64,000 bases of DNA from Nematostella vectensis (Eukaryota): contig NC_064037.1 in NCBI RefSeq assembly GCF_932526225.1, positions 3,120,996 through 3,184,995 of the forward strand. Reading direction: 5' to 3'. The notes under the pieces are model-generated. The model was not told the DNA's origin, searched no databases, and saw only the letters and a program-made list of their open reading frames with translations. Position numbers and translations under genes: made by a program. Of the stretch, positions 14,101 through 33,236 are shown in pieces (the first letter of the stretch is position 1; each line of letters begins with the position of its first letter).

Positions 14101-15583
14101 CTCGTCTCTGGGAGTTGTTCCGACTTATTCATTTGGCTCGACAGATTAAGGTTAGACGGTGGGCGCGAGCTTGGTTTTCTTGCCCAGGCGCAAGGTGTGA
14201 ACACAGCCTTTAACTTTTATGTTCCTTGAATACATTTTTTCATAATATAATCAAATTTAGGCTATTTTATTAATCTCATTGCAGCCCTCTTACAAATCTC
14301 AAAGACTGTATGTCAACTTTAAAGTAAGTTGTTTCTATTTTTTGTATTTATCGCTTGATTTTATTTACATTTATTTGTCTTCGTTCCACACCACACACTA
14401 AAGGGATAAATACAGGACAAAAGTCGTGCCATCTTTGGAGTCAGCTAGCTATATTCCTGTCGTAATTTTCGGGTTTCCGTTGGTTAATAATATAACGTCA
14501 CCCAAAACTCTTTCCTCAGCTTCTCTTGTATCACGGCCAACCACAGGAATTCCTAACAGAACGACCGGAACCAGGCTGATTAGAACAGACCTGTTCTCTT
14601 ATTGTAGTTACCGGTCCATGAAGAGCTAGGCGATAAAAAAACCTGTTGACTCATTGTAGTTACCGGTTCATGAGGAGAGCGACATTCAGACATTTACTCT
14701 ATTAGAAACGCACTGGAGCTAAAACCATCTTCTCATCCGATATTGGTTCCTTCTACTAATGTTTTATTGCTTGTCTTGATTTAGGAGGCAAATCGCGAGT
14801 CTACAGACCCAAATGGACGAACACACTCACGCTATACAATCTTCTACCTTTCAGTGGAGGTACGGATTGGGTTAAGTTTGGGGAAAGGGGGGTGGGAAGG
14901 GAGGGAGGAAGTAGGGATTGAAAGTGGGTAAGAGGAAAATAGTGAGAGGCTAGGAAGCTAGTTTGGTTCAACCTGTTTTCGTTATATCTAAAACATTGGC
15001 TACACCACTGTCTTCATGCAAACTCTTTGCACAGTAAACGACTTAATAGCTTGGTATGGGAATACGTGCTAATGACAGGGTCTTTAAGCTGCTGGCTTTA
15101 GTATAGATGATTGTTATCGGAGAGCAAAAACCCTGTCATATGCCTAGGATATGCAGGCCCGTACCCAGGATTTTCTTGGGGGGGGGGGGGGGGGTGCGAA
15201 ACCAAAAAAAAATTTCCGGGGGGGGAGGGGGAGGGAGTTCTCTGATAAAAATCTAACCAACTCTGAAAGAACAAAAAGGGATTTTTATGCCTTTGCAGCA
15301 TCTTCACGGGACGTTTATTGTTGGATTTGGCTACATACCAAAGTGATCATGATTTTTAGTTTTGTCTACAAATAGCACGTCTATCCCCCCCTGGGTATGG
15401 GCCTGATATGTCCATTCAGTGTCGAGCTGTTGCATGAATGGGATAGTAAATTTGCGCTGATGCATGCGATGATCAAATATTCTCGATTACAGGACGTTCG
15501 AGAAGAATGTGAAAGATCTGCAACAAAGAACCAACTCAGACCCAGACATTATGGCGGTAGCCGCTGAGAGAGATACACACTAA
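8172..15583 (+). CDS. Large coiled-coil (golgin / GOLGA3-like?) protein, about 1506 aa. Coding exons: 8172-9024, 9484-11482, 11928-12144, 12188-12226, 12732-13978, 14785-14859, 15493-15583 (TAA 15581-15583)
   Basis: An N-terminal ~430 aa non-coiled head includes five 20-aa repeats. About 1000 aa of heptad-rich sequence follows (for example LEGKLEALTGEYNSILAERKELHAQLRTLQARLQE). All junctions are GT-AG with consistent phases, provided a 43-nt GT..AG gap at 12145-12187 is spliced out. The C-terminus reads ...RTFEKNVKDLQQRTNSDPDIMAVAAERDTH*. Family assignment is tentative. Confidence 0.7.
8620..8935 (+). repeat. In-frame 60-bp tandem repeat x5 inside coding exon 1 of the coiled-coil gene, encoding 20-aa units GAEGTY(V/I)GGTSAGFQGR
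   Basis: Direct reading. It is periodic in all six frames, which explains the overlapping artefact ORFs at 8588-8985 on both strands. Confidence 0.85.
15141..15407. mobile_element. MITE family A copy (TIR caggcccgtacccagg ... cctgggtatgggcctg); other copies at 32196-32549 and 52483-52812
   Basis: Three copies of about 330 bp share an internal sequence (ttctctgataaaaatct...atgcctttgcag...gtctacaaatagcacgtcta) and terminal inverted repeats. Confidence 0.65.
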
Positions 15584-15805: not shown

Positions 15806-18800
15806 CTACAACTCATCTTGTGGATATCTAAGGGGGCTCCCTGTGGTTCCCGACGTCCTTGTGTCGTATTTAACAATCGCGTCTAGCAGTTCATCTCCTG
15901 TGGACGTGGGAATCTGATCGAGGGTGATGTTCGAATATCGCTGGCGCAGTATGAAGGCAGCGGCTTTTGGTTGGCGTGCACGTGTAAAGATACCTTTCTT
16001 GTTGCCTGCCACACGTTTAGCACCTGACAACAACCAGAAATGTTAATCAAACATGTCAATTTAGACATGTCAATCTAACTTGTCAGTTTAGACATGTCAA
16101 TGAGATAAGTAATTTAAAAATGTCAATCAGAAATGTCAAACAGATGTCAATCAGGCATGTCAATTTGATATGTAAATTTACATGTGTCCATCAGAATTCC
16201 TCAATCCGGCGTTTTCGTTTCGTTAGTTTGAAGTCTGTTATGAACAAGATTGACAGCGAAATTGTTTGTTCTATATGATTTCTTTGGTTGCTTTATCCCC
16301 CCCCTTTTGTCCTCCACCAGCGAGGTCTCGATCAAGTAAGTAGGAAATATTATAATACTTTGTCTTCACATACAGTACAAAAACCGCATTGTCAATAAAC
16401 GAGACATGATTGCAATAAATTTAGCTTTGATTAATTAAAATCCTGCCCACTTATTTCATCGATCAGCCTGATTGTTGAAAATGGGTGGTTCTTGTATGCG
16501 CGTTTTACAATATTTGATCACTAAAACATTTTTGGGCAACTTAAAAGATTGCTTCGAGGGCGACTGTACTTTGTGCCGTGTTGAAATCAGCAAAATTCCA
16601 GATCATCTCTCCGACAAAGAACTCCTTCCTCAGTTTGTCAAAAACCGGAAAATATTGCTGAATGGTCTCCACCTAAAACACAAGCAGAGATGATTTATTT
16701 TATTATTTATCACGAGATTCTTATAAGTCATCACAGTAAGCTGATAATAAAACGTTGAGTATGTATCAAGAAAAAGTGTCCTCGGGGTAAGCTAAAAAAA
16801 AGTCCTTATTTGGGCAATTATTGAAAGTTGGCATATATTATAGTTTTAGAAACACCAAAATAGGCGAATAATCATCAAATAATACAAATTAGATTTAGAA
16901 AAGATAGAACATCTTAAAACTTGTGTTGATGATTTTATTTGTCATTGAGGAAGCTTAGAAGCAGTCACATTTTAACACAGGAAGCTCAGAGTTACTCCAG
17001 CAAGTAGACTATCCTGGGTACCAGAGGCCCCAGCTTTATCACTCCTTGACTGTCACGCCGGTCTTGGCTACGAGGAGGGAAACTCCTTTATTATTATTAT
17101 TATATTGTATTATTATCGTCCCTCGTAGTCGAGACCGGCGTGTTAGTAAACGAGTGAAAGCTCGAGCCTCTGGTACCCAGGTTAAGTAGCAACCAATACA
17201 TTGATATCAATCTACTCGTACCTGGTACTCCTCTGTGAACATCAGTGCTGGTGACTAGATTAGAGAAAGCTTTAGTATGGCTAACCTTTCCAATACGCGG
17301 TGTATTCTACACTCGACCGAGAACACGAGCAAACGCGGAAATAAGGCAAAGAGAGGAGGAGGCAGTCCTTCCATCTCCTTGCCTTCTTTAAGCTCAGGGG
17401 TAGCCGCCTAAAATCGTGCTGGAGGTCGAAATTTGTGTTTTTATATGTAAGTGATTTGGAATTAACATTGGGCAGTTTGAGCTTTTTAGAGAATTTCATA
17501 AGGGGGGGGGGGGGGGGGGGGGGAGAGGGAGGCAGGCAGGCCACACACCCACCGGTCACACCCACCGAGTGTAATCCCGCGATTGTATCTGCTCCATACT
17601 CTGCCATTATGACCGGCTTGTTGTATTTCTCGTGAAAAGCTCGCAGGTCTCGCTCTAGTTGACGGCTTATCAACTGAGTTCCTCCAAAATCCGCGTACCA
17701 GCCGTAATAGCGGTTGAACATGATGACGTCACTGAGCCTCGCCTGAGACAAATAATAAATTATTTCGTCACAATCATAACACAGGGGGCCAAAGGCAAGC
17801 AAATTCGTGGGAAAAAAATATAGCGACCAAGATAATTTTATTGTGATTCTCCCATTATTTCTTTTTTTTTCGGATAGCATGATCATATAATAAAAAACAC
17901 AACTTGAGAGGGAGCTTTCTCACCATAAACCAGGAAACCCAGGTTGCCATGAATTTCATAACTCTGTAGATATTTGTCTCCTTTTCATTCTCCAAGCCCT
18001 AAAAGCTAAAAGCAAATCCCGCATCCCGCGCGACATTTCTTAATTCCCGCTCGTGCCCCCCTTGTATCCGGCCCTCATTTCGGAAATGTTTATTTTCAAT
18101 ATTCCATGCCGATCTCAAAAAGAAAACAAGGGCTGGGCGAGTGCAATCCTCCTGTAAACTTACAGTGGTAACGCAACACGTGACAGGGCTGAGAATAGTC
18201 TTGGTCTACCTGTGGTAAATACCCGAGGTCAAATAGACTACAATCACCCACCGACCTCGCATCCAAGATCGACTGCAGAAAGCTGGCTTTGTTGTTTATG
18301 TACAGCATGAAGAGTGTAGAGCTCTGTGCGTGTGATACACCACATAGAGTGGATAGTTACTGGTCGTGGTTTGAATCCTGTACCCATCACAATAGTTTAG
18401 TCTAACTGTGATAAATACCCGAGGTCAAGTTCGCAGGCTGCAATCACCCACCGACCTCGCATGCAAGATCGACTGCAGAAGGCTGGCTTTGTACAGCATG
18501 AAGTGTGTAGACCTCTGTGTGTGTGATACACCACATAGCGTGGATAGCTACTGGTCGTGGTTTGTATGCGTTGCTGCCCTGGTAGCTGAAGGAGTTTACC
18601 TAAGTATCACCTACTGTTCTGGGATAGTTCTACCGGTTTTGATGGAAGAGTTCAAGCGAAGTAGACAAGATGTTGGTGAGGGTTTGCTCAAATAGCGTAC
18701 ACAAAATACACAAGTTTGTAAAAGATAAATCGTCACGATAAAATTGATTTTTATTTTTATTAAAATAGTTCTGTTTCGTCCATTTTGGACTTTACTCTAC

Positions 18801-21800
18801 AAATAACCAAATAATAAAGCAGGCTAATTTGATGTCATTGGGTGACATAGGTTGAAAATTTTATTTAAATAGTTATGCTTTGCCGATTTTTAATGACAGT
18901 ATTCGGCGCTTCCTTTTTTCAAGTATATAACAAGTCTTGAGAATGTTACCTCCTTGCAAAAACTGACCCATTTTTAGCGTTGCCGTGAAATATTTTCCTT
19001 ATCTCACCTTGAATAAACTGTTCAAGTTACGGCATATCATCGCCAAAATGTTGTTGCGGCGACACGAATCGAAAACAAAATCCTAATCTCGTTTGGTTGT
19101 AGTCAATCAAACAAGACAATTAAATCAGCCATCAAATTATTTTGTGTAATAGGATAAAATGTTATTTTTCAACAAAAATATTCCGCTTTTCTTTTGTACA
19201 CCATCAATAAATACCGATTTTTCTGAATTAAGTCGACCCCCTGGGAAAAACAATACACATATACGTGACATATTTCATCCGTTCTTCCCGTTATAGCTTG
19301 GATAGGATCATTGGCAATCGCGCTTGCATTTGGAGCATCACCGCTGGCGGCTGGCTTGTGTGCTAAGCTAGGCTGTCGTCCAATAAGCATACTGGGTCTC
19401 TTGGTAAGCTCAGTGTCTTTGGTTGCAAAATCATTCTCTTCATCATTCTCGCTACTTGTCGTCTTCGGGATAACATATGGCCTTGCGACAAGTTGTATCC
19501 ATGTGTCAAACATGCTTACAATCTCACGTTCCTTCGAGAAGCGTAGAGCGCTCGCCACAGGAATCGTTTCCGCTGGTCCGTCGCTTTTTGTTCAGGGAAT
19601 GGGACCTCTCGTCGGGTGGCTGACATCTACATTCGGATGGAGAAGTATGTACCGGATAATCGCCTCGTTTTTTGGCGTAGCGCTGGTTTTGACGTCTGTG
19701 AGTTTTGGCTCCAACATAAAAGATCCCTCGGAGGAAAAGGTTACACAGCTACATACGACTGGGAAATCAGCTCAAATGGGACAACAAACCGCAAATGTAT
19801 ATGGGCCAGACATTGCGCAAAGAAAAACGGTCGATAAAAACGCGACCCTATATCACAATCCGGGTGGGGCAGCGAGACTATTTGAAGAGGAAATTCTTCT
19901 AGAGAAGGCAGAAACTTCATCCGTGGAATGCTCGATGGAGGGCTTGAAAAATGACGCAAAATTTGCGGAGAACTCATTCGAAGATCGGCTGCTTGAAGAA
20001 AATGAAAAATTTCAACTATTCCACTTCTCTACTGAAGAGAACAAGAAAATTAATGAACAAGAAGTGCAGTATGACGAGCTAAAATTAGCGGTGGAAAATG
20101 ACGGCTCACTTGCTAAAGGGAAATGGCGTTCCGGCATCTCTTGTGATCAGAATTTTTCATTCATAAAGAGACCAGCTTACATTTGCACTGTGGTAAGCAT
20201 CACCTTATCCGGAGTTGGCATCTACGCTCCGTTTTTTCATTTGGTAAGTTGATATTTAAAAAAATAGCAGATAAAACAACGATGGACGATAGAAAAAACT
20301 CGTGAAATGGAAGTTCTCTTATGCAGGTTAAACATTGCGAGGAGGTTGGGCTGTCGTCAAGCGAGGCGTCCACGCTGTTCATTCACATCGGCATTTCTTC
20401 CCTCGTTGGTCGTATTCTCAGTGGTCAAATCGTCGACGCCTTCCACATCTCCCCCCTCAAAATCCACCAATGTGCTGACTTCATTTGCGGTGGCTCCATG
20501 CTCCTTATATGGCTCGCGAGTGACTATTTATCGTTTTCCGTGTTCGCAGTTGTTTACGGACTGTCGAATGGGGCGTACGTGACGACAATGTATTTGGCTC
20601 TGATGAATACAGTGGATGCGAGGGACAGACCGATGGCGTTTGGCTTAGGGGAGATGTTATGTTCTGCTGGGATTGTTATAGGCCCTGTACTTGCAGGTAA
20701 GACGGCCATGCTTGCGAAGTTAAGACCGACATGCACTTCGAGGGTAAGACCGAGATGCAATGCGAGGGTAAGACCGACATGCACTTCGAGAGTCGGACCG
20801 ATATGTATTGCGAGAGTAAGACCGATATGCACTGCCAGAGTAAGACCGACATGCACTGCCAGAGTAAGACCGACATGCACTGCCAGAGTAAGACCGATAT
20901 GCACTGCCAGAGTAAGACCGATATGCACTGCCAGAGTAAGACCGACATGCACTTCAATAGTAAGACCGACATGCACTGCGAGGGAAACCGACATGTACTT
21001 CGAGAATGAGACCGACATGCCCTTCAATATGAAGACCGACATGCATTGCGAGAGTAAGACCGACATGCACTGCATATCAAACATATTCCCCACGGATAGT
21101 GTCCTTCGTATGCATTGCCTTATATGGGCATTGATGCCCATATTTAGAAGAGCTAAAGTTTTCCCGCTCCCTGATCTCCAGAAAACATGGTGAAAAATAC
21201 TGATTCCTTTCAATTTGAGACTCGAGGCAAAAATGTGTCAAAAAAACTTTATCGCTTGGTCAAATCTTTATCACACAAGTCTTGAAAAGCCCTTAGACCC
21301 AGGCCTCCAAGAGATTGGCCGAGCGAGATTTAAGGTCACCCAAATATTGATATGGAGAGAAGACCGACATGCACTTCGAGACAAAGACCGACATGCACTT
21401 TGAGGGTAAGACCGACGTGCACTTCGAGAGTTAGACCGACATGCACTTCGAGAGTTAGACCGACATGCACTTTGACATGTAAAACCGACATTGCGAGAAA
21501 AAAACTCGATACACACACATTGCACTGTTTGATTTGGCAATGGACACTGATGAAGAGGAAGTAATTTTAAAACGTCTGCGAAATCGACTTTAGTTTAGCG
21601 CATATTATCTGTATTTTAATTTACAATAATCGTATTTACCAAGCGTCAACCGCTACAGCACCCTCTTTGTATAAATTATGCTGCAAGGGAACGACCGGCA
21701 TAAACTGCGAGATAACTAAGGCTAAATTCGCTGCTTGTTTTCCAGGTTTGATAGCAGATAAGACGGGTTCATACGTAGCAGCGTTCGGTATGACGGGAGG

Positions 21801-24800
21801 TGTTACAGTATTCGCGGCTTTTGTTCCGCTAATTCTGTTATGCCGCGCACAAGAGAGAGACAGGGCAGCATGCCACAGGGTGCCCATAACTAACCTCGAG
21901 GGACTGATAATCGTCGAAAGGGAAACCGTCTTATGATTTAGACAAAGACATTATATAAAAGGTTTAATACCATCTTTATAAGCAGCAACAATTCGTTAAT
22001 AAACTTTTTTACTGTAAAAATAACCACCACCATTATCAGTCACCATCATCATCACTATAATCACCACTAATATCGTCTTTTTCAACTCACCACTCTGTCG
22101 AGAAAGGCGCGGTATTTCGTGACATACGTGACAGGTCGCGTGACATCCATGGAGCGAACTTCTTCGAATATCGGCCTGTACAAAACAAATCAAGCACATT
22201 CTCAATAAGTACAATATTTAAGGCTTTGTACATCTTAGAGAACATTTTAGATTCTATGCGCTGGACCGAAAACAGTATCTGACGTCATATATTATCCGTA
22301 ATATTTCGTAATATGGCCCGACAACTCTAACTATAGTATAATCGTGCGCTTACAAAACAAACCATAATATTGTTGTTAAAAATGTCTAGTAAAGACATGT
22401 ACAATTAATGGAAGATGCCTATATGAATAAAGAAGCCATTAAATAAATGATTCCGTCCAGCTCGCTATAAATTACACAAGGTTTCCGAATGAGTGAAAAG
22501 TGATAGCAAAATGGCGGAGCACTGGAAACTAGGTAGTGTTTATCAGTGGCCTAAGCCATTGGTTGTCGAAAAGTATAAATTTCACATCAACCGGTTACGT
22601 GAGCGGATGACGTACTTGAAATAGTCAAGCGAGGCTGGCTTGTCCGTGGGAGGCTCGTTGGCTACCGACCACATGACAACCGCTGGACGGTTTTTATCGC
22701 GGCGCACAAGCTCCATCATCTCTTGCGTGTGACGCTTCTGGAGCTCTGGGGTAAGGTTCGCACTGCAACATAGGGAAAAAAATCGATCAACCACTCCTTT
22801 GTTATTGTTTATAAATGAAAATGCGACGGTTTATTTGCAAGGAGACTTCAAAATTACAATCAACGAATGAAGTCTGATACTTTATCAATGATATTTGATA
22901 GAAAGTTTCTCAGTTATTTGCTTGAATTTGCCGATGGAAATGGATGCTTTGTGTGACTCGGCATTGAGCGGGAGAGTAAAATGACGGCGTGATTGCCCTT
23001 TTTTAAGATTCTTTTAATGAATCGGTTGAAACAGTAATAATGCGCAACTAATCTATTGTGCTTACTAGTTTTCGAAATTAACAGTCCACGTTTATTTGTT
23101 GTTATGAAGTGCGGTAAATTCCACACACAAAAAACTTGTTTCAGCGCCATGTCCCATTAGCAACACATGTGTTATTGTTTCATGCCATATTGGAAGACAC
23201 ATTATGTCAAGAAATCTCGGAACAACCTCCCGTCAACCTAAAATCAGAGTTTCATACTTTATTTACCAAATAAGTTCGAAAATACCACAATAGCTTCGCA
23301 TTCAGCCCATGGAAATGTTGATGTTTTTACCACACTTGATACTTTGACAAATTATCTTTAAAGCCGGCCACACAGTACGAAATACCACATCAGGGGCTGA
23401 ACTAGAAGTAACAACCTTTATTTTGATATATCGACAGTTTATATCGAATATTTTTTTCTAAGTGAAAAAAAATAGTAATCTTATAAGGACTGGGCTTCCC
23501 ATACCTAAGAAAAAGTGGTGTATAAAACAAATATGGTAACAAATGTTGGTAACCCATCGACTCGAGTTTTCGTGACGTGATGTCCGTCCGTCCGTCGACA
23601 ACCAAACTTGGCAGGTGTCATGTATGTGTCAAGGGAGGGGCAAATTGCGGTCAAGTGATTTGTGACGTCATCGATGACGTCACTAGAAGCAAAAATATGC
23701 TGACGTCATCAAAATAAAAAATATTTATATTTCACGAAGTAGACATCATATGGCAACCAATCTCGGTAGGTGTCATGTAGGTGTCAAGGGGGATGCAACA
23801 ATATGGTCACGTGATTGTGACGTCATCAATAACGTCACTAGAAGCAAAATATGCTGACGTCATCAAAATAAAAAAACATTCAAATCTCGTGAAAGAAACA
23901 TTGTATAACAACCAAACTTGGTAGGTGTTTATGCATGTGTCAAAGGGCGGTGTCAAGTTATGGTCACCTGATGCGTGACGTCATCGATGACGTCACTTTA
24001 AGCAAAACTATCCCGATTTCACATCTATATTCATATCTCCTAAACGAAACATCATATGACAACCAATCTTGTTATGTGTCATGAAGGTGTCAAGGAGAGT
24101 GCACCAATGTAGTCACGTGATTGTGACGTCATCAATGACGTCACTAGAAAAAAAATATGCCGACGTCATCAAAATAAAAATATGAAATATATATATTTTT
24201 TATTTCATTAAAGAAACATCGTGTGACAACAAAACTCAGTAGGTGTGATGTATGTTTCAAGTGGGGTGCAATGAAATAGTAACGTGATGTCATTGATGAC
24301 GTCAATAAATTAACTACCCTGACTCCAAAAGATCGTATAACAATTAAATGTGTTACGTGTCATGTAGTTGTCAAGGTTGGGGGGAAGGGGGTCGCGTGAT
24401 CTGTGAAATCGTTGACATCGTCAAAAACAGAAAATATAATATATTTAATATTTCTTTATCTACCACAGCCTGTCGTACTTAGAATAAAATCTAAATTAAA
24501 GTTTTGAAACATTCAGTTTGGACATATATCGTAAGATCCCCGTTTTAAGTCATTACTGTTTGTTTAAGTGCCCGCTTGTAAAATAAATCCTTCTGAAAGC
24601 AAGTTCATTAGTACTTCACACAGCTAACACCGCCGATTGACTATTAAGCGGAAATAAGCAAAGATTTGGTCGTTTGGAGCTCCGCTTTTAGGCAATGCCT
24701 AAATCTATACATTATCTTGAGCATTAGTAAGTCCAGAGTCACAGCACAGTCACATCTATCACGAAAAAGCATATTTACAAATTGTTTTTCTGTGACATGG

Positions 24801-27800
24801 TTTTTAATTGCGCTGTTTTCGGCTGCACGAGCTCCCCTATACCTGGGAAGATCACCCCTTCGAAAACGGTGAGCGATCAGAGGCAAAGCGACGCAGAAAG
24901 GGCTGGGTAAACTTTGTTTCGCGAACTCGTGCCCACTGGAAGCCCACGGACAACACACGTGTCTGTTCGGAACACTTCGGTGTTTCAGACTTCTCAATGC
25001 GATATGATTTAATGGAGGGTACGTTTAACATCAAGAAACTTCGCAATGCGATATGATTTAATGGAGGGTACGTTTAACATCAAGAAACTTCGCAATGCGA
25101 TATGATTTAATGGAGGGTACGTTTAACATAAAAAAACTTCGCAATGCGATATGATTTAATGGAGGGTACGTTTAACATCAAGAAACTTCGCAATGCGATA
25201 TGATTTAATGGAGGGTACGTTTAACATCAAGAAACTTCAGATGGATGAAATCGGTATTGTGGCAATACCGTCGATTTACCCGAAGGGAAGCGACGAAAGA
25301 CCAAGCTCATCTAGAGATCGACGAATGGTATGTTTATCGCAGTTGTGCCAAAATTTGATTTGTTTCGGTTCTTGTATATAATTATCCAGGACTGAGTTGA
25401 TCATAGTTTTTGATTACTTAAATATAGGAACTGCGAAAAATTTTAACAGAGTCGAAAGAAAATATCGAAGGTAAGTTTTTTTAATCGACAGGATGATTCC
25501 TTGAGACGTGTCACTTTAGTCCGAAGTTGGATTTTCAAATTATTATTATTGCTTTATCTTTGTTTTTTTTTTTTTGTATCGTTGGTGTTGCAATACCATC
25601 AATGTTATCACGGAAGAGTGGTGATTTTAATGATTTTAATATGTATTAAAATACATAGCCTTTCTCTAACAACACACACGCAACAGAATATTTAACAAAA
25701 TATATAAAACGAGAGTTATAGTTGATATTATTTTTTATTCTAAAAATAAAGAGAAGTCATATCATGCGAGAACAACGATGGTGATCATGATGAGCAGATC
25801 ATTACAAAAAGCAAAGTAAGTCTTTTTATATTGATTTTTTTTGTATTGTCTTTTTTATTTGTGTGGTGGAATGGAGCCATTTTCTTTCAAATGTGATATT
25901 TCTTTATCAAAATTGCTTTACCCCTGTACTAGTTACAACAATGAATTTAAATTGTACGTAATTTGTTGCAAATCAATAAATCATGTGGATAAATAAAAAA
26001 ATGTGAATTTTCTATTTTACCCAATAATTTATCGGTTAATTCCCTGTCTTATACATATTGTTGAAATTTCTTATTTCAGAACTATAAAATGCAGAACGAA
26101 CCGGTGGCTTGTGAAAGGTGCTCTGAACTTTCACATAGGAATCGCAAGATTCGTAATCAGTTAATTTACCAAAGGCTGCAGTCCATCAAGTTCAGGGCAA
26201 AAATAAAGAAGCTAACACGTGGTATGTACTTTTTTCACCCCCATTTTTAGCAGAAATTGTGGAAATGTTGGGTTAGTGGTTGTTTATATCTAATATGTAT
26301 TTGTACTCACGGCTCAATGCCCACAGCCGGACACTCATCGATGACTACTATGCCTGTCCGGTCGGCCATGTCCATGATCTCCTCGGCGTACGGGTAGTGA
26401 CTAGTCCGGAACGAGTTACCTCCTAGCCACTTCATCAGGTTGAAGTCCTTGGCGATAATCACGTTATCGACTCCTTTACCTCGAATCTGAAAAAAAAAAG
26501 ATATCTTAAAGGCTCCGTTTGGCGCACAGCTTCCAATAAGCATCCCTCTTCGAATTAGCGCCCTCTCCCCACTTCTGGATATATTTGCAAGAATAGCCGA
26601 ACACAAGGCTTTTCTGTTTTATAACCCGTTAGTTACCGTTTTTATAGAACACTGAGAAAAGAGTACTGAGCAATTTTAAGTTGTTCTTGTTTCAAATCTA
26701 CAATTTAATTATCAAGCCAGGGGCGGATATAACTTGCGCCAAAGGGGTGTTTGGCTCAGTGACAAGGGGGAGGGGGTAGTTTTTTTTGTTATATGACTCC
26801 TAACGTATGATTTATTAAAGCGATGGCTCTGATGATTATTATACAAAAATTACCTCAGCGGCGAGCGATGATAAAACAGTCGATTACCCCCTCTTCTACG
26901 ATCGCCATGTTTACAACACTGTATGCCCTTTCTTTAGTCAAAACTCTCAGAGATATTCATGTATTTGCTTTACGATACAAACTTTTCGCCAAAGTGTGAT
27001 CAGATGTGGGTCTTATTCTCTGATATCCTAATAAATAGTGTCGATAAAACATAAAATAAGCCGCATACAGCATTAAGTACCGTCTTGTAGTGGCTTGGTC
27101 AATGGCGCGATAAGCCCAAATGCTTATCTACTATACTTACTTTACCATTGCTGGCCGCTAAAGCAATTTTAGTCATAAAATCCAAAAAGGCTCATCGCCT
27201 TTAAGATTCATACTATTGCTCCAGATTGCATTCAACTTTGGTCGATATTTTCGTAAAATATCATTTTCACACCCCATACTGCGCAAAAAATACAAAGTAT
27301 TGTATGGGAATCTTTACTTCCGGTGGATTTTGGTCCAGTTGGTGAAGTTCTTTGGCGCGGCAAAAAATATATTTTTTTACCAAGTTCCTTTCACCTGTCT
27401 TCGATGTGGCAAGGGGGCGTGATTAACAACAATACGGCTGCTCGGATGCCCTCCCAGGTACCAATTGCAAATACAAAGCATCTAATCGGTACTAATCATT
27501 ACAAAAGTTAATAATAATAATACTGGAATATTTGATTCTCTAAATAGGTATCGCATCTATTACTCACGTTTGCATCCTCGTGCTTGCCAAAGCCTTTAAA
27601 GTAAAACTCTTTGTCGTTGATGAGAAATTTAGTGCCTTCAACGCGTACAGTCCTTATTCCCACAGGAAGGCGGTAAACATCTTGTATGTACAACTGAGAC
27701 AACGTCGTTACCTAGAGGATACAAATTTCATCATCGACACCGTCACCAACAAAATCATCACCATCAATTAGTACCCAGGGGCGTAGCCAGGATTTGTAAT

Positions 27801-30800
27801 AGGAGGGGGCCCAAAAGGCCTTTATTTGACATTTTCTCCTAAATTTTTAAAACTGTCCCATGCATTTACTGTATTTTTGGATGCTAGAAGGGGTAGGCCG
27901 AGACCCTTGGGCCCTCCCCCTAGCTACGCCCCTGGTACTAACCGTTATCATCTGAAGACTGATTTCCATATGATCGCACACTATTTCAGCTAAATTGACC
28001 GTACGATAGCAACCGATCGCTGCTGCTTTCTATATAAACGCACGAATTATTGCTTCACCTTACAGTTCTTTAATCCCTTGGGAGTCAGGTAGGGGGGGGG
28101 GGGTCTCGTAAGTTTTTTTCTAAAAAAGGAAAGGTCAGATGTGTATGCCCCCCCTGTTTTCTTAATGTCCCTTGGCGGCCAAAAAGTGGGTCATTTCTTA
28201 TTAAGGAATCTTCAAATACGATGCTTTTTCAATATGATACCTAACCCCCCCCCCCCCCCTCCTCCCTCGGCCAATCCTGGGTACGCGCATGTCCATGTCC
28301 GTTAGGACCCTGCCATTTAACGCAACCCCCCGTACCTTGAGTGTGTACAGATATGCCGTGTTGTTGGTCATTCCAATTGGCCACCACAGGACCGGATTCC
28401 GGACAGTTAACTCTCCCTCAAACTTCTCTGTCCCTTCAACGGTTTCCACGACAAACCCCTCGTGGTCCAGTAACTCGTACTTCATATTGATGTCCCCTCT
28501 CGGAATAGACTTGATGGCACCCACCACTGACAGAAACTTGACAGTCCCGACATTACCATGGAATGACGTTGTTATGGTGATGTCAGAGAGGAAGACAACT
28601 GGGGTTGTGTAAAGTTTGACGGGGCGATTGATGCCGGCGTAATTAAAGAAGTCGAACTTGTAGGTCTGTACATTATAACCATCAGGGTGCCTGGACATCG
28701 GTAGTGACAATGAAAAAAACAAGGATACATTTATGTACATTCATGCCTTACCATACGAGTAGTACAAGTGTACATATGGGGGTACTTACTAGATGAGTGT
28801 TCACTCGAGGAGTAAATGTTATTTAATTCATGTGAGGTCGGTAGCTTATTATACGAATGTACGCGTATTCATGTGAGGCTGGTAGCTTATTATACGAATG
28901 TACGCGTATTCGTGTGAGGTCGGTAGCTTATTATACGAATGTACGGGTATTCATGTGAGGTCGGTAGCTTATTATACGAATGTACGCGTATTCATGTGAG
29001 GCTGGTAGCTTATTATACGAATGTACGGGTATTCATGTGAGGTCGGTAGCTTATTATACGAATGTACGCGTATTCATGTGAGGCTGGTAGCTTATTATAC
29101 GAATGAACGCGTATTCATGTGAGGCTGGTAGCTTATTATACGAATGTACGCGTATTCATGTGAGGCTGGTAGCTTATTATACGAATGTACGCGTATTCAT
29201 GTGAGGTCGGTAGCTTATTATACGAATGTACGGGTATTCATGTGAGGTCGGTAGCTTATTATACAAATGTACGCGTATTCATGTGAGGTCGGTAGCTTAT
29301 TATACGAATGTACGCGTATTCATGTGAGGTCGGTAGCTTATTATACGAATGTACGCGTATTCATGTGAGGTCGGTAGCTTATTATACGAATGTACGGGTA
29401 TTCATGTGAGGCTGGTAGCTTACTATATGAATACCATGAGAGGCTGGCTGCAAGCAAGTAGTGCCCATGTATGGGGGGCACATACAATCAGAAAGTGGGT
29501 GTTCCTTTTAAGTTGGTTGCAAACTATACGAATGTAAGGGTATTTACTTGGTAAAAGTGCGCTCTTGGGCGGAACAGGAGCGAGGGTGTTAAACAACTCA
29601 CCAGCTCCACGAGGACGGGAGATGTTCTACCTTCCCAGGGGGGAGGGTGGTGGGGGTGAGCGTGTTGTTGATGGCCACTGTAACCCTATTAGACTTATCG
29701 TAGCGTAGAAACTCACTGATGTCTGCCTCAAAGGCTAGGTAACCGCCCTCGTGTTCCGTCACCTTCTCGCCGTTCAACCACTGCAAGACATCCATATTAC
29801 ATACTCACGGACAAGCCGCGATGCATACGCTAAAATACAAATAAGGAATGCATACTACAAATTCGGCACTGGTGATTGCAGGCATATCGCCATGATGTTT
29901 CAGCACGGCAAGAGCGCGATGCATGAATATTGGGCCCGAGGTAAGTGACACACACGGCAAGAGCGCGATGCATGAATATTGGGCACGAGGTAAGTAACAC
30001 ACACGGCAAGAGCGCGATGCGTGAATATTGGGCACGAGGTAAGTAACACACACGGCAAGAGCGCGATGCATGAATATTGGGCCCGAGGTAAGTAACACAC
30101 ACGGCAAGAGCGCGATGCATGAATATTGGGCCCGAGGTAAGTGACACACACGGCAAGAGCGCGATGCGTGAATATTGGGCCCGAGGTAAGTAACACACAC
30201 GGCAAGAGCGCGATGCGTGAATATTGGGCACGAGGTAAGTGACACACACGGCAAGAGCGCGATGCGTGAATATTGGGCCCGAGGTAAGTAACACACACGG
30301 CAAGAGCGCGATGCATGAATATTGGGCCCGAGGTAAGTAACACACACGGCAAGAGCGCGATGCGTGAATATTGGGACCGAGGTAAGTAACACACACGGCA
30401 AGAGCGCGATGCATGAATATTGGGCCCGAGGTAAGTAACACACACGGCAAGAGCGCGATGCGTGAATATTGGGCCCGAGGTAAGTAACACACACGGAAAG
30501 AGCGCGATGCGTGAATATTGGGCCCGAGGTAAGTAACAAACACGGCAAGAGCGCGATGCGTGAATATTGGGCCCGAGGTAAGTAACAAACACGGCAAGAG
30601 CGCGATGCGTGAATATTGGGCCCGAGGTAAGTAACACACACGGCAAGAGCGCGATGCATGAATATTGGGCCCGAGGTAAGTAACACACACGGCAAGAGCG
30701 CGATGCGTGAATATTGGGCCCGAGGTAAGTAACACACACGGCAAGAGCGCGATGCATGAATATTGGGCCCGAGGTAAGTAACACACACGGCAAGAGCGCG

Positions 30801-33236
30801 ATGCATGAATATTGGGCCTGAGGTAAGTAACACACACGGCAAGAGCGCGATGCATGAATATTGGGCCCGAGGTAAGTAACACACACGGCAAGAGCGCGAT
30901 GCATGAATATTGGGCCCGAGGTAAGTAACACACACGGCAAGAGCGCGATGCGTGAATATTGGGCCCGAGGTAAGTAACACACACGGCAAGAGCGCGATGC
31001 GTGAATATTGGGCCCGAGGTAAGTAAGACACACGGCAAGAGCGCGATACGTGAATATTGGGCCCGAGGTAAGTAACACACACGGAAAGAGCGCGATGCGT
31101 GAATATTGGGCCCGAGGTAAGTAACACACACGGCAAGAGCGCGATGCATGAATATTGGGCCCGAGGTAAGTAACACACACGGCAAGAGCGCGATGCATGA
31201 ATATTGGGCCCGAGGTAAGTAACACACACGGCAAGAGCGCGATGCATGAATATTGGGCCCGAGGTAAGTAACACACACGGCAAGAGCGCGATGCGTGAAT
31301 ATTGGGCACGAGGTAAGTAACACACACGGCAAGAGCGCGATGCGTGAATATTGGGCCCGAGGTAAGTAAGACACACGGCAAGAGCGCGATGCGTGAATAT
31401 TGGGCCCGAGGTAAGTAAGACACACGGCAAGAGCGCGATACGTGAATATTGGGCCCGAGGTAAGTAACACACACGGAAAGAGCGCGATGCGTGAATATTG
31501 GGCCCGAGGTAAGTAACACACACGGCAAGAGCGCGATGCATGAATATTGGGCCCGAGGTAAGTAACACACACGGCAAGAGCGCGATGCGTGAATATTGGG
31601 CCCGAGGTAAGTAACACACACGGCAAGAGCGCGATGCATGAATATTGGGCCCGAGGTAAGTAAGACACACGGCAAGAGCGCGATGCATGAATATTGGGCC
31701 CGAGGTAAGTGACACACACGGCAAGAGCGCGATACGTGAATATTGGGCCCGAGGTAAGTAACACACACGGCAAGAGCGCGATGCGTGAATATTGGGCCCG
31801 AGGTAAGTAACACACACGGCAAGAGCGCGATGCGTGAATATTGGGCCCGAGGTAAGTAACACATACGTACCACTTTCGTGTAGTAGTTAGCGCCTTCAAA
31901 GCGGAGCACCACTCGGGTGTTAGAGTCATTCCATCTGGAAGGGACGTAAGTCTGCATGTCGTACCATGCCCAGCCGCGGAAGTCCCGGATGCCCTTATCC
32001 TGGGTTATGTCGTTATAGCTCGCAGGAACTGGCATGGGGATAACTTCACCTGACTTTAGACATGATTATTATCTTATATAAATAAGCAAATTATGCGAAG
32101 AGATCTTGAAATAAACAATGAAGTGAACCATTTCTCAAATTCAATCGAAAATATTTGATAATAAAACTACTCGAATAAAACAGCTTCCAGGCCCGTACAG
32201 TGACGTCACTGTACAGGCCCGTACCCAGGATTTTTCTTGGGGGAGTGCGAAATCCGAAAACGTGGACCAAATTTTTGGGGGGGAGAGATTGGAGGGAGTT
32301 TTCTGATAAAAATCTGACCACCCCCGTAAGAACAAAAAGGGATTTTTTATGCCTTTGCAGTATCTCCACGGACATTTATTGTCGGATTTGGCTACAAATA
32401 AAGTCTGACTTATGGATTGATGACATACCTGAGTGATCAAGCTTATGCTTTATAGTTTTGTCTACAAATAGCACGTCTATTGAGAACCAAAGTGGACTTT
32501 TGGCCGTTGTGGGGGGTTCGCAAACCCCTTTGGTACGGGCCTGGCTTCTGTTACCGGCTTCTATTTAATGACAATTTTACACTTAAAAAATATATTTATA
32601 TATAAATCGTGAAAGCACACAAAAAAACGGAAAATTTTGATAGCTCAAGAATTTTTTATACAAGAGTTTTAGCCCTGGCCAAACGAAACGCAAGCCCTCC
32701 TTCAGTAAATCCTGGATACGCGCTTGTGTGTCAAGGTGTACTAGAATGTCAGAGGCAACAATCCCTCTAGCAGAATAAACGGGTGAAATTCGACAGCTTG
32801 CCATAAAAAAAATTTTAGAATAAAACTTTGAATTTTATAAAACTTTGAATTACTTAGAAGGCAGTATTCTTTTTTTCCAACTTCGATATCTTAGTCAGTG
32901 TTATCAAATATTTTACCACCTATGGTTTTGGAATATTTTTCACAGTACAGTAAACACACGTGGCGCCTATAGTGCGAAAATGCGGCAATATCTTTCCCAA
33001 GAGAAAACATCATATAGACAAAATTAATATACCTTTTCTAGAGGTCTGCTAAACCAAGACTCTGCAAATCCAGCTTCTTTGTCTTTACTATTGTCCACCC
33101 GAAAATTCCACAATCCGCTAAGATCTTTGATCTCTCTGCTCTCTGATTCACGAGGAAACAACATTCCAGGCAAAGTGTTAGCATTACATGTGATTGTCAT
33201 GAAGATAAATGTGAGAAGTCCCTTTAAAGCACCCAT
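15806..33236 (-). CDS. GUSB: Beta-glucuronidase (GH2), 11 coding exons on the minus strand: 33033-33236 (ATG at 33236), 31871-32053, 29602-29780, 28336-28690, 27568-27711, 26311-26486, 22616-22762, 22091-22175, 17566-17742, 16570-16672, 15806-16023 (stop TAG 15806-15808). Total 1971 nt, about 656 aa
   Basis: Spliced translation aligns along its whole length with remembered human GUSB. Matching blocks include [116 protein letters not shown]...[86 protein letters not shown]. All 10 introns are GT-AG and phases are consistent. Confidence 0.9.
16035..16200. repeat. Cryptic tandem cluster of about 10 (a)catgtcaat(cag) motifs spaced 11-22 bp, in GUSB intron 10
   Basis: Direct reading: ttagacatgtcaat x3, aaatgtcaatcag and so on. 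Confidence 0.6.
16995..17185. mobile_element. Palindromic MITE-like element (TIR ctgggtaccagaggc ... gcctctggtacccagg; A/T-rich centre with (tta)n)
   Basis: Arms are reverse complements (cttgactgtcacgccggtcttggctacgaggaggg / ccctcgtagtcgagaccggcgt). Confidence 0.55.
17505..17525. repeat. G(21) homopolymer, which is poly-C on the GUSB coding strand, about 40 nt downstream of the GUSB exon 9 donor
   Basis: Direct reading. It creates a read-through ORF (17281-17886, minus) that encodes PPPPPPP. Confidence 0.8.
18212..18570 (+). repeat. Tandem duplication (~190 bp x2) of the promoter-proximal region and 5' part of exon 1 of the SLC16-like gene
   Basis: Copy 1 is at 18212-18400 and copy 2 at 18403-18570, about 90 percent identical. 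Both contain ctgtggtaaatacccgaggtcaa...caatcacccaccgacctcgcat.caagatcgactgcagaa.gctggctttgt...acagcATGaag(a/t)gtgtaga. Copy 2 continues into the real exon, whereas copy 1 diverges and hits a stop. Confidence 0.8.
18498..21936 (+). CDS. Monocarboxylate-transporter-like (SLC16 / MFS) gene, 4 coding exons: 18498-18675, 19297-20243, 20327-20696, 21746-21936 (TGA 21934-21936). It is nested antisense inside the GUSB intron between GUSB exons 22091-22175 and 17566-17742
   Basis: Translation has MCT-like transmembrane blocks ([22 protein letters not shown]; [34 protein letters not shown]; [20 protein letters not shown]) and a long hydrophilic TM6-7 loop. The C-terminal exon [29 protein letters not shown] matches the MCT1 (G)RLVDATGSYTAAFFVAGG region from memory. 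GT-AG junctions and phases are consistent. Confidence 0.8.
20697..21110. repeat. 24-bp minisatellite x~17 (gagGGTAAGACCGACATGCACTTC) starting exactly at the exon 3 donor of the SLC16-like gene; a second block of ~5 units lies at 21352-21480
   Basis: Each unit contains a GGTAAGA donor-like motif. The period is a multiple of 3, giving artefact ORFs on both strands (20554-21213 minus, 20731-21009 plus and others). Confidence 0.85.
21352..21480. repeat. Second block of the same 24-bp minisatellite (about 5 units) in the same intron
   Basis: agaccgacatgcacttcgag repeats. Confidence 0.8.
23560..24430. repeat. About 150-bp tandem repeat x6, each unit carrying a palindromic double CRE (tgtgacgtcatcgatgacgtcac), a third TGACGTCA and often an E-box cacgtg; about 400 bp upstream of the THAP ORF
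   Basis: Roughly 15-18 perfect TGACGTCA octamers in 870 bp by direct reading. Units begin caaccaa(a/t)cttgg(c/t)aggtgtcatg. Confidence 0.8.
24797..24989 (+). CDS. THAP-type zinc-finger (C2CH) ORF, first coding exon. The N-terminal [10 protein letters not shown] is in one frame and LHELP...[30 protein letters not shown] is in the +2 frame, ending at the donor GGAGG|gtacgt
   Basis: C-x4-C and C-x2-H spacing plus FHxFP-like, RRRKxW and WKPT motifs fit the THAP signature, but the two halves are in different frames with no valid intron between them. This could be a frameshift, a pseudogene or a sequence error. Downstream candidate exons 25243-25328, 25429-25471 and 26083-26222 have good splice signals but unverified frames. 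Confidence 0.4.
24985..25245 (+). repeat. 50-bp tandem repeat x5 whose unit is the 3' end of the THAP exon plus its donor (gcgatatgatttaatggagg|gtacgtttaacatcaagaaacttcgcaat)
   Basis: Direct reading; five tandem copies of the exon-end/donor junction. Confidence 0.85.
27770..27935. mobile_element. MITE family B (TIR cccaggggcgtagccagg ... cctagctacgcccctgg), about 160 bp, in a GUSB intron
   Basis: Perfect 16-bp terminal inverted repeats; a related fragment is at 26705-26770. Confidence 0.65.
28170..28290. mobile_element. Dispersed element family E (ggccaaaaagtgggtcatttcttattaaggaatcttcaaat...poly-C...ccaatcctgggtacgcgc); second copy at 63190-63330
   Basis: Two copies of ~120 bp share >85 percent identity and include a C-homopolymer. 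Confidence 0.55.
28790..29440. repeat. 41-bp minisatellite x~15 (ggtagcttattatacgaatgtacgcgtattcatgtgaggtc) in GUSB intron 3
   Basis: Direct reading; the period is 41 bp between ggtagc occurrences. Confidence 0.85.
29885..31865. repeat. 60-bp minisatellite x~33 (cacggcaagagcgcgatgc(a/g)tgaatattgggcccgaggtaagtaacaca) filling almost all of GUSB intron 2, abutting the exon 2 donor (31870) and ending about 100 bp from the exon 3 acceptor
   Basis: Every unit carries a perfect consensus 5' splice site GAG|GTAAGT on the plus strand, antisense to GUSB. The three long minus-strand ORFs (29805-31862, 29830-31929, 29900-32035) are periodicity artefacts, except that the first ~45 codons of the last one are real GUSB exon 2. 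Confidence 0.9.
32196..32549. mobile_element. MITE family A copy (see 15141-15407)
   Basis: TIR caggcccgtacccagg / cctggtacgggcctgg with a shared internal sequence. Confidence 0.65.

What the first reader, a model, noticed from the sequence alone, without database searches (positions are those of the whole stretch)
23560..24430. Tandem array of palindromic cAMP-response elements (about 15-18 TGACGTCA sites in 870 bp) upstream of the THAP ORF
Each ~150-bp unit contains a double CRE in a perfect palindrome (TGTGACGTCATCGATGACGTCAC) plus a third CRE and often an E-box (CACGTG). A full-site CRE octamer is expected by chance less than once per 30 kb. The array could be a very strong CREB/ATF-responsive enhancer or promoter for the downstream THAP gene (start ~24797, same strand), a satellite derived from transposon termini, or an origin or insulator element.
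Basis: seen in the sequence. Interest (0 to 1): 0.7.

Follow-up and report, generated by a model that had tools for sequence, protein, structure and literature searches.

The report
CRE-rich repeat beside dead Kolobok transposon
The tandem repeat packed with cAMP-response-element motifs is real, but the "THAP gene" next to it is the broken first exon of a Kolobok DNA transposon whose intact relatives carry one such motif near each end, so the array is most likely an amplified piece of transposon promoter, not a host gene's enhancer.

Summary
The array exists at 23560-24430. It has about 5.5 units of ~155 bp, with 10 exact TGACGTCA sites and 4 one-mismatch sites, not the 15-18 claimed. About 0.6 are expected in the whole 64 kb window. 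The 22-nt palindrome GTGACGTCATCGATGACGTCAC is the best-conserved block of the unit.

The array and the THAP ORF lie antisense in a 3.5 kb intron of a beta-glucuronidase-like gene. The THAP ORF is dead. It has a 16-nt deficit that shifts the frame, and a 49-bp x5 duplication inside the domain.

Its homologues in Xenia, Dendronephthya, Acropora and unnamed assemblies are exon 1 of 5-6.6 kb Kolobok (Kol0-type) DNA transposons. These have TTAA flanks, AG-starting inverted repeats, a DDE-like region and a KolX gene. Each relative checked carries one conserved box, (T)GTGACGTCATTTAAGGAAC, about 150-210 bp inside each end checked. The box sits 73-152 bp upstream of the THAP start codon, and about 110 bp upstream of the inward gene at the two far ends measured.

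Best reading (about 0.5): the array is a tandem amplification of this transposon's CRE-bearing promoter or subterminal region. Homology beyond the CRE core could not be shown, and no transposon terminus was found in the window. An unrelated repeat or a co-opted enhancer remains possible. Interest is modest.

The parts
23560..23596 (+). U0: degenerate partial unit at the 5' edge of the array. It contains TGACGTGA, a one-mismatch CRE, at 23573.
23597..24338 (+). Units U1-U5 of the ~155-bp tandem repeat: 23597-23751, 23752-23907, 23908-24057, 24058-24224, 24225-24338. Pairwise identity is about 72-85%.
   Evidence: TRF; the repeat finder; blastn; alignment A3
24339..24430 (+). U6: degenerate last unit. 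The palindrome has decayed to TGTGAAATCGTTGACATCGTCA.
23662..23683 (.). 22-nt double-CRE palindrome GTGACGTCATCGATGACGTCAC, perfect here. Further copies lie at 23817-23838 (91-92%), 23975-23996 (perfect palindrome), 24123-24144 (95-96%) and 24284-24304/24307 (88-90%). It is the most conserved 22-column block of the unit: 0.947 against a unit mean of 0.687 for U1-U4.
23701..23708 (.). Third CRE of the unit, in the context ATATGCTGACGTCATCAAAATAAAA. It is also exact at 23855-23862 and reads CGACGTCA at 24161-24168. It is lost in U3 and U5.
23808..23813 (.). E-box CACGTG, within GGTCACGTGAT. A second copy lies at 24114-24119. Other units have one-base variants.
23613..23636 (+). Second conserved block of the unit, AGGTGTCATGTAKGTGTCAAGG (two GGTGTCA-type motifs). 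It is the best-conserved block when U6 is included.
   Evidence: (family D6)
24431..24796 (+). 366-bp spacer between the array and the THAP ATG. No CRE box is present: the best box-PWM score here is -7.7 bits, against 21-39 bits for real boxes. A TTAAAGT at 24496 lies at the distance from the ATG where relatives have their terminus, but similarity tests failed.
24797..25327 (+). Decayed THAP exon, exon 1 of a Kolobok-type transposase. The EAKRRRK motif lies 83 nt after the ATG in frame +2, against exactly 99 nt in frame 0 in 8 relatives. The ORF from the ATG stops after 37 codons. The exon ends at RDRRM|gt, as in relatives.
24989..25238 (+). 49-bp x 5.1 tandem duplication (97% identity) inside the THAP domain. 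It brings in a stop codon before the AVPTIF-type end of the domain.
22759..26312 (-). Intron of a minus-strand GH2/beta-glucuronidase-like gene. It holds the array and the THAP remnant. Flanking exons are at about 22588-22758 and 26313-26486.
   Evidence: Pfam; tblastn exon map

Best explanation
The array is transposon-derived. A ~155-bp segment carrying the CRE-type box of a Kolobok (Kol0-type: THAP-DDE transposase plus KolX) DNA transposon was first doubled locally. A 12-bp step, TGACGTCATNNN, gives the 22-nt palindrome. The whole unit was then amplified 5-6 times by unequal crossing-over or replication slippage.

The array lies immediately 5' of the element's now-dead THAP exon, inside an intron of a beta-glucuronidase-like gene on the other strand.

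In intact relatives a single box, (T)GTGACGTCATTTAAGGAAC, sits about 150-210 bp inside each terminus. It lies 73-152 bp upstream of the THAP start codon, and about 110 bp upstream of the inward-facing gene at the two 3' ends I measured. It most likely serves as a bZIP (CREB/ATF-type) promoter element for the transposase and KolX genes.

The array would then be a multimerised transposon promoter or subterminal module. It could be a strong CREB/ATF binding cluster, but it no longer has an intact gene of its own to drive.

What is shown: the array, the broken THAP exon, the Kolobok identity of the homologues, and the conserved box with its geometry.

What is inferred: that the array descends from that box, that the box is a promoter element, and that bZIP factors bind it.
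For: (1) The THAP remnant belongs to a large family, with 397 proteins at E<=1e-8. The named members are all anthozoan: Xenia, Dendronephthya, Actinia and Acropora.

(2) Where enough flank was fetched, the relatives are 5-6.6 kb elements with TTAA flanks and inverted repeats starting AGTGC. They give weak Mutator/MULE/ISL3 DDE hits. One has a P2RX7_C-like minus-strand gene. This matches the published description of Kolobok Kol0 (PMC9587614, PMC6004289).

(3) Across 9 subterminal regions, the only invariant non-coding columns are in the box TGTGACGT..TT.A.GA. Over the 11 THAP-side ends measured, the geometry is terminus->box 151-208 nt, box->ATG 73-152 nt and terminus->ATG 225-360 nt. The box at the far end sits a similar distance in, about 160-200 nt. 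Five further family proteins begin MTS, which would be ATGACGTCA if the usual codons are used, 25-31 codons upstream of the THAP start.

(4) The array lies 366 bp upstream of the THAP ATG on the same strand. Three units share the 12-mer TTGTGACGTCAT with the box. The family 5'-end profile finds its best, though non-significant, window matches in the array units. The best box-PWM hit in the whole window is in unit U3.

(5) The palindrome is the most conserved block of the unit.

(6) There are precedents. Internal segments of Kolobok-type MITEs have been amplified into tandem arrays (Xmix->Xstir, PMC6004289). DNA-transposon MITEs carry and spread TGACGTCA plus G-box motifs (PMC5950925). Two unrelated dispersed repeat families with the same 22-nt palindrome turned up in metagenome contigs.
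Against: Homology beyond the CRE core is not demonstrated. In a flank-only PWM test, just 1 of 10 array CREs (23988) looks Kolobok-like, at the 99.6th percentile of 501 control CREs. The rest are ordinary.

No terminal inverted repeat or TTAA-AG terminus could be validated in the window. nhmmer found nothing significant. A fuzzy search for the terminal repeat found nothing above chance. Both candidate termini, 23358 and 24496, align to relatives no better than random segments, with z of -0.7 and -0.1.

None of the relatives inspected has more than one box per end or an array there.

The array lies 370-500 bp from the ATG, further than the box in relatives. It is even further than their termini usually are.

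CpG retention in the array (o/e 1.21) is not special, because the rest of the intron has 1.14. It gives no evidence of protection or constraint.
Confidence: 0.5

Rival explanations
1. The array is an independent tandem repeat. It could be a local minisatellite or satellite, or the core of a different CRE-bearing mobile element. It would then sit next to the Kolobok remnant only because repeats pile up in this intron.
For: The flanks of 9 of 10 array CREs do not resemble the Kolobok box. No Kolobok terminus encloses the array. TTAAAGT at 24496 lies 301 nt before the ATG, inside the 225-360 nt range of relatives. If that is the real terminus, the array is outside the element. The window is very rich in tandem arrays, with 42 TRF rows. 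Unrelated repeat families with the very same 22-nt palindrome exist elsewhere, one of them a ~450-bp MITE with 4-5 CREs.
Against: It would be a coincidence for a CRE array to sit directly upstream of the one ORF type whose family has a conserved CRE box upstream. It shares TTGTGACGTCAT with the box. No other copy of the unit exists in the 64 kb window. If 24496 were the terminus, a box should lie between it and the ATG, and none does.
Confidence: 0.25
2. The CRE-containing box, and hence the array, is mainly a transposase-binding subterminal repeat. The element's THAP domain would recognise it during transposition, in the way P-element transposase binds subterminal sites. On this view it is not a host-factor promoter element.
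For: The box occurs once at each end checked, in inverted orientation and at a similar distance from each terminus: 151-208 nt on the THAP side and about 160-200 nt on the other. Conservation extends beyond the CRE octamer into TTTAAGGAAC, which is not part of a bZIP site. From my own knowledge: the P-element THAP domain binds subterminal sites, one of which overlaps the element's promoter.
Against: The core is a perfect palindromic bZIP consensus. From my own knowledge, THAP fingers bind asymmetric sites of the TxxGGGCA or TxxGTGxA type. The array units mostly keep the CRE but not the TTTAAGGAAC half. The box is as well placed relative to the two start codons as it is relative to the termini.
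Confidence: 0.15
3. The array is now a host cis-regulatory module. It would be an intronic CREB/ATF (plus E-box) enhancer or bidirectional promoter, kept by selection and acting on the beta-glucuronidase-like gene, the nested MFS transporter gene or another neighbour, whatever its origin.
For: It has a dense cluster of consensus sites: CRE, TCACGTGA E-box and repeated GGTGTCA. The palindrome is conserved at 0.947 while the rest of the unit has drifted to 0.687. Units are 15-28% diverged, so the array is not young, yet 10 perfect octamers survive.
Against: No expression, accessibility or cross-species data could be obtained. No close relative of the source species is in the protein collection: the best GUSB hits are 37-63% identical. 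CpG retention is not specific to the array. Homogenisation by gene conversion could also keep the palindrome intact.
Confidence: 0.12

Closest known systems
Kolobok superfamily DNA transposons, Kol0 lineage (e.g. Kolobok-1_XT; Kapitonov & Jurka; Kojima & Bao 2022, PMC9587614; Hikosaka et al. 2018, PMC6004289)
   Same: The homologues of the window's THAP ORF have TTAA flanks and termini starting AG (5'-RR). They have an N-terminal THAP domain, a DDE-like region with a DxxH motif (DLWH), and a second gene with weak P2X7-ballast (KolX) similarity.
   Different: The window holds only a broken THAP exon. It has no termini, no DDE region and no KolX gene. Searching the two papers for 'promoter' and 'subterminal' found no mention of a conserved CRE box ~150-210 bp inside both ends. 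A CRE-rich tandem array next to the THAP exon was not seen in any relative.
Xstir tandem arrays derived from an internal segment of the Xmix T2-MITE, a Kolobok non-autonomous element, in Xenopus (as summarised in PMC6004289)
   Same: A segment of a Kolobok-type element is amplified head-to-tail into a tandem repeat family.
   Different: For Xstir the parent MITE and the arrays are both known genome-wide. Here descent of the unit from the element is inferred only from adjacency and a shared 12-mer. The genomic copy number is unknown.
MITE-borne amplification of TGACGTCA (bZIP60) and G-box (PIF3) motifs in Prunus (PMC5950925)
   Same: DNA-transposon-derived elements carry the exact octamer TGACGTCA, sometimes together with a CACGTG-type motif, and multiply it in the genome.
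   Different: In Prunus the motifs spread by transposition of Harbinger MITEs, one or a few per copy. Here 10-14 sites are packed by tandem duplication at one locus, in an animal, next to a Kolobok remnant.
P-element subterminal THAP-binding sites (own knowledge: Kaufman, Doll & Rio 1989; Sabogal et al. 2010)
   Same: A THAP-domain transposase and a conserved internal site near each end, one of them within the element's own promoter.
   Different: P-element sites are asymmetric 10-bp sequences, not bZIP palindromes. Binding of the Kolobok THAP domain to this box has not been tested.
Viral multi-CRE enhancers, such as the 19-bp repeats of the cytomegalovirus major immediate-early enhancer and the HTLV-1 21-bp repeats (own knowledge)
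   Same: A selfish genetic element uses repeated CRE or CRE-like sites in short tandem or dispersed repeats to recruit host CREB/ATF.
   Different: Those repeats are short (19-21 bp) and proven to be functional. This unit is 155 bp, its function is untested, and it lies next to a dead gene.

Membership tests
Cluster of full-site cAMP-response elements (CREB/ATF enhancer) | Consensus palindromic octamer TGACGTCA present in multiple copies, beyond chance | tested here: met
   There are 10 exact and 4 one-mismatch sites in 871 bp. The window total is 16 against 0.58 expected, with 0 of 100 shuffles reaching 16.
Cluster of full-site cAMP-response elements (CREB/ATF enhancer) | Occupancy by CREB/ATF proteins and cAMP- or stress-dependent activation | not testable with these tools
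   No ChIP, ATAC or reporter data are available, and the source organism is unidentified.
Cluster of full-site cAMP-response elements (CREB/ATF enhancer) | Drives an intact downstream gene (the THAP ORF) | tested here: not met
   The ORF from ATG 24797 stops after 37 codons. A 16-nt deficit shifts the frame relative to 8 relatives. A 49-bp x5 duplication truncates the domain.
Kolobok superfamily (Kol0 lineage): the homologous elements L001-L004 and L126-L133 | TTAA target-site duplication and termini 5'-RR...YY-3' | tested here: met
   TTAA|AGTGC... at both ends of L003, L004, L130, L131 and L133; L127 reads TTAT at its 5' end and TTAA at the other. Inverted repeats are 30-122 nt. Criteria are from PMC9587614 and PMC6004289.
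Kolobok superfamily (Kol0 lineage): the homologous elements L001-L004 and L126-L133 | DDE transposase with C/DxxH signature and N-terminal THAP domain | tested here: inconclusive
   THAP is clear (PF05485). For the DDE region there are only weak Pfam hits: Mutator 1.2e-3, MULE 1.3e-3, ISL3 9.7e-3, and Mutator 'faint' in L133. DLWH is present in an L004 ORF. The catalytic residues were not mapped.
Kolobok superfamily (Kol0 lineage): the homologous elements L001-L004 and L126-L133 | Second protein KolX with the P2X7 cytoplasmic-ballast fold | tested here: inconclusive
   The minus-strand gene in L133 has a weak precomputed PF20478 P2RX7_C hit. One exon of the L004 counterpart gave no Pfam or PDB match.
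Kolobok remnant: the window copy itself | THAP exon homologous to the family's exon 1 | tested here: met
   Pfam THAP 4.6e-8. Family hits reach 6e-22 at about 50% identity. Shared features include [10 protein letters not shown] and the RDRRM|gt exon end. tblastx finds only this exon in the window.
Kolobok remnant: the window copy itself | Recognisable TTAA-AG termini or inverted repeats enclosing the array and the THAP exon | tested here: not met
   Nothing was found by pattern search, inverted-repeat search or nhmmer. Candidate termini 23358 and 24496 score like random sequence.
Tandem array derived from an internal segment of a transposon (Xmix->Xstir type) | Unit demonstrably homologous to a segment of the parent element | tested here: inconclusive
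   A shared 12-mer TTGTGACGTCAT occurs in 3 units, and one unit (U3) has box-like flanks. The other 9 exact CREs have ordinary flanks.
Dispersed satellite | Many copies of the unit at other loci | tested here: inconclusive
   There is no other copy in the 64 kb window. There is none in viral contigs. Metagenome contigs share only the 22-nt palindrome, not the unit. The source genome itself could not be searched.

The most novel reading that the evidence does not exclude
An anthozoan-wide Kolobok lineage may have hard-wired both of its inward-facing promoters to the CREB/ATF (cAMP/stress) pathway through one conserved box. That box may double as a transposase-binding site. If so, transposition would be signal-responsive. 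In this genome a multimerised version of the box would have outlived the transposon as a selected, CREB/ATF-dependent intronic enhancer or bidirectional promoter for host genes.
Probability: 0.12. Interest if true: 0.6.

Novelty: new variant of a known kind. Interest (0 to 1): 0.35.

Why it matters
If the reading is right, this locus shows a transposon promoter module being multiplied into a dense transcription-factor binding array. That is one of the routes by which mobile elements seed new enhancers.

The more general by-product is the conserved CRE-containing box at both ends checked of a widespread anthozoan Kolobok lineage. It gives a testable handle on how these poorly studied transposons are transcribed or recognised, and on whether they respond to cAMP or stress signalling.

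For annotation the practical lesson is that the 'THAP gene' here is a transposon pseudogene inside a beta-glucuronidase-like intron. It is not a host regulator with a spectacular promoter.

Tried and rejected
(a) Searching for Kolobok termini in the window. I tried a pattern search with mismatches, fuzzy matching with indels, inverted-repeat scans of the intron, and nhmmer with a profile of 7 family 5' ends. Nothing rose above chance.

I had talked myself into two candidate termini from positional coincidences, at 23358 and 24496. A global-alignment test against 9 relatives, with 400 random control segments, gave z of -0.7 and -0.1. True but divergent relatives scored 108-144 against 37+/-14. 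Both candidates are therefore unsupported.

(b) Testing homology between the array and the box by flanks only. Just 1 of 10 sites stands out.

(c) CpG observed/expected as evidence of protection. The array has 1.21, but the rest of the intron has 1.14 and the array is only at the 90th percentile of windows. This does not discriminate.

(d) Looking for an orthologous 'empty' intron. No close relative of the source species is in the protein collection.

(e) Looking for the unit elsewhere. Four viral-contig scans were empty. The metagenome scan found the palindrome in more than 120 contigs, but these are unrelated repeat families with no THAP or transposase.

(f) Known RNAs and tRNA-derived repeats: none found. 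The single-strand fold of a unit is unremarkable, z -1.7.

(g) A PDB sequence search with one KolX-like exon gave only chance hits.

(h) An apparent Kolobok-like terminus at 14306-14322 turned out to have no box or THAP nearby.
Full report
OBSERVATION

The region 23560-24430 is a tandem repeat. TRF reports a 155-bp period over 23597-24180. The repeat finder, self-blastn and a MAFFT alignment of units extend it to five units, U1-U5 (23597-24338). Degenerate partial units sit at both edges: U0 at about 23560-23596 and U6 at 24339-24430. Units are about 72-85% identical to each other.

The exact octamer TGACGTCA occurs 10 times in the array, and 4 more sites are one mismatch away. The whole 64 kb window has 16 exact sites against 0.58 expected from dinucleotide-preserving shuffles.

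The 22-nt palindrome GTGACGTCATCGATGACGTCAC is perfect in U1 and U3 and 88-96% intact in U2, U4 and U5. A third CRE is kept in U1, U2 and, one mismatch off, in U4. CACGTG occurs only twice.

Among U1-U4 the palindrome is the best conserved 22-column block, at 0.947 mean pairwise identity against 0.687 for the unit. The next best block is AGGTGTCATGTAKGTGTCAAGG.

CONTEXT

The array is not intergenic. Pfam hits on minus-strand ORFs and a tblastn exon map with animal beta-glucuronidases show a GH2/beta-glucuronidase-like gene on the minus strand. Consecutive exons lie at about 26313-26486 and 22588-22758. The array and the THAP ORF lie in the 3.5 kb intron between them, on the opposite strand. 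The next intron holds an MFS-transporter gene on the + strand.

THE THAP ORF IS A PSEUDOGENE

The ATG at 24797 opens a frame that stops after 37 codons.

In 8 relatives the EAKRRRK motif starts exactly 99 nt after the ATG in frame 0. In the window it starts at 83 nt in frame +2, a 16-nt deficit (alignment).

A 49-bp x 5.1 tandem duplication at 24989-25238, 97% identical, sits inside the domain and introduces a stop.

WHAT THE THAP ORF BELONGS TO

A profile search finds 397 family members at E<=1e-8. The named ones come from Xenia, Dendronephthya, Actinia and Acropora, all anthozoans. I fetched 13 loci.

Where enough flank was available, the THAP ORF is exon 1 of a 5-6.6 kb element. The element is flanked by TTAA and has inverted repeats that start AGTGC, for example TTAA|AGTGCACATGCAGCCATTTCAAATTTT. 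The repeats are 30-122 nt long.

Internal ORFs give weak Mutator/MULE/ISL3 hits and contain a DLWH motif. In Dendronephthya the annotated neighbours are a 547-aa Mutator-like protein and a minus-strand protein with a weak P2RX7_C hit.

This matches the published definition of Kolobok, Kol0 lineage. That definition includes TTAA duplications, 5'-RR termini, a DDE transposase with a C/DxxH signature and a THAP domain, and a second protein KolX with the P2X7 ballast fold. The lineage is known from cnidarians (PMC9587614; PMC6004289).

A CONSERVED CRE BOX AT BOTH ENDS OF THE RELATIVES

In an alignment of 9 subterminal regions (five 5' ends and four 3' ends), the only invariant non-coding columns spell TGTGACGT..TT.A.GA. 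The consensus is (T)GTGACGTCATTTAAGGAAC.

There is one box per end checked, in inverted orientation. Over 11 loci the 5' geometry is tight: terminus to box 151-208 nt, box to THAP ATG 73-152 nt, terminus to ATG 225-360 nt. At the 3' end the box sits about 160-200 nt inside the terminus. In L003 and L004 it lies about 110 nt upstream of the inward-facing minus-strand ORF. Five more family proteins with N-terminal extensions begin MTS, which would be ATGACGTCA if the usual codons are used, 25-31 codons before the THAP start.

Searching the two Kolobok papers for 'promoter' and 'subterminal' found no mention of this box.

IS THE ARRAY PART OF THE TRANSPOSON?

This is the weak link.

In favour:
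- The array is directly upstream of the THAP exon, 366 bp away on the same strand.
- Three units share the 12-mer TTGTGACGTCAT with the box.
- The family 5'-end profile has its best, though non-significant, window matches in the units.
- The best box-PWM hit of the whole window is in U3, TGACGTCACTTTAAGCAAAA.
- There is no box in the 366 bp between the array and the ATG, where a normal copy should have one.

Against:
- A flank-only PWM test with 501 control CREs shows only that one U3 site to be box-like, at the 99.6th percentile. The other nine are ordinary.
- No terminus could be validated.
- The two candidates I considered, 23358 and 24496, align to relatives no better than random window segments.
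- None of the relatives I inspected has more than one box per end.
- The array lies further from the ATG than the termini of relatives do.

I conclude that descent of the array from the Kolobok box is the most economical explanation of the adjacency. It is not proven.

WHAT IT DOES

For the family box I favour a promoter role. It is a perfect bZIP (CRE) palindrome at promoter-proximal distance from the inward-facing start codons. A role as a transposase-binding subterminal site, alone or in addition, is a live alternative. The box is placed symmetrically relative to the termini, and its conservation extends beyond the CRE.

For the array itself, the gene it would have driven is dead. Any present function would be as a co-opted intronic CREB/ATF/E-box module. 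The stronger conservation of the palindrome is compatible with that, but also with homogenisation. CpG retention does not help: the array has o/e 1.21, the rest of the intron 1.14, and the array is at the 90th percentile.

COMPARISON WITH WHAT IS KNOWN

Transposon segments amplified into tandem arrays are known for Kolobok-type MITEs (Xmix->Xstir, PMC6004289). DNA-transposon MITEs that carry and spread TGACGTCA together with G-box motifs are known in Prunus (PMC5950925).

My metagenome scan found the very same 22-nt palindrome in more than 120 contigs. Most belong to a ~450-bp inverted-repeat element with 4-5 CREs at its centre. The general phenomenon, mobile elements loaded with CREs, is therefore not new.

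What may be new is the conserved box at both ends of an anthozoan Kolobok lineage, and its possible multimerisation here.

VERDICT

It is a new variant of a known kind. Interest is about 0.35. Confidence in the best explanation is about 0.5.

The source organism is unidentified. The THAP family hits and the best GUSB hit (Exaiptasia) point to an anthozoan cnidarian, but that is not proven.

Noticed in passing
Most belong to one ~450-bp dispersed element with terminal inverted repeats (GGCTCGCGCGC...CTTTAAGCGAC) and 4-5 CRE boxes at its centre. A second family ends in GGGTCTAGTGAAG... and also carries several CREs plus CCGGAAGTG. Neither resembles the window outside the palindrome, and neither encodes THAP or a transposase.
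   Followed up: partly
L133:3320-3845 and 5223-5675 (Dendronephthya gigantea contig): About 2 kb upstream of an intact Kolobok copy lie two inverted arms, each made of 19-bp tandem repeats carrying the Kolobok terminal motif. CACTTTAA occurs about 12 times on the left and TTAAAGTG about 8 times on the right. This looks like a tandemly amplified transposon terminus, in an 'inside-out' orientation.
   Followed up: no
window 24989-25238: A 49-bp unit repeated 5.1 times at 97% identity inside the THAP-domain coding sequence. The repeat is much younger than the 155-bp array next to it.
   Followed up: partly
window 18408-21936 (+) within 17731-22587: An MFS-transporter gene (monocarboxylate-transporter-like ORFs) is nested on the + strand in an intron of the minus-strand beta-glucuronidase-like gene. 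A 24-bp minisatellite (20697-21073, 15.8 copies) runs through one of its long ORFs as a repeated RVRPTCTA peptide.
   Followed up: no
window 29904-31867, 28826-29432, 47214-49977: Very large, young minisatellites: 49 bp x 40, 41 bp x 15 and 55 bp x 50, each 94-97% identical. The first two lie in introns of the beta-glucuronidase-like gene. The window as a whole is unusually rich in tandem arrays, with 42 TRF rows.
   Followed up: no
window 8492, 9875, 17724, 22280, 32201, 43907: Six further exact TGACGTCA sites lie outside the array, against about 0.6 expected for the whole window. At least three lie in long ORFs or exons (8492, 9875 and 17724, the last in a GUSB exon). The one at 32201 is the centre of a longer palindrome, CCCGTACAGTGACGTCACTGTACAGG, in the intron upstream of the exon at 31871-32056.
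   Followed up: partly
window 22802-23006 and 39262-39466: A 205-bp dispersed repeat, 80% identical, of unknown type. One copy lies in the same intron as the array.
   Followed up: no
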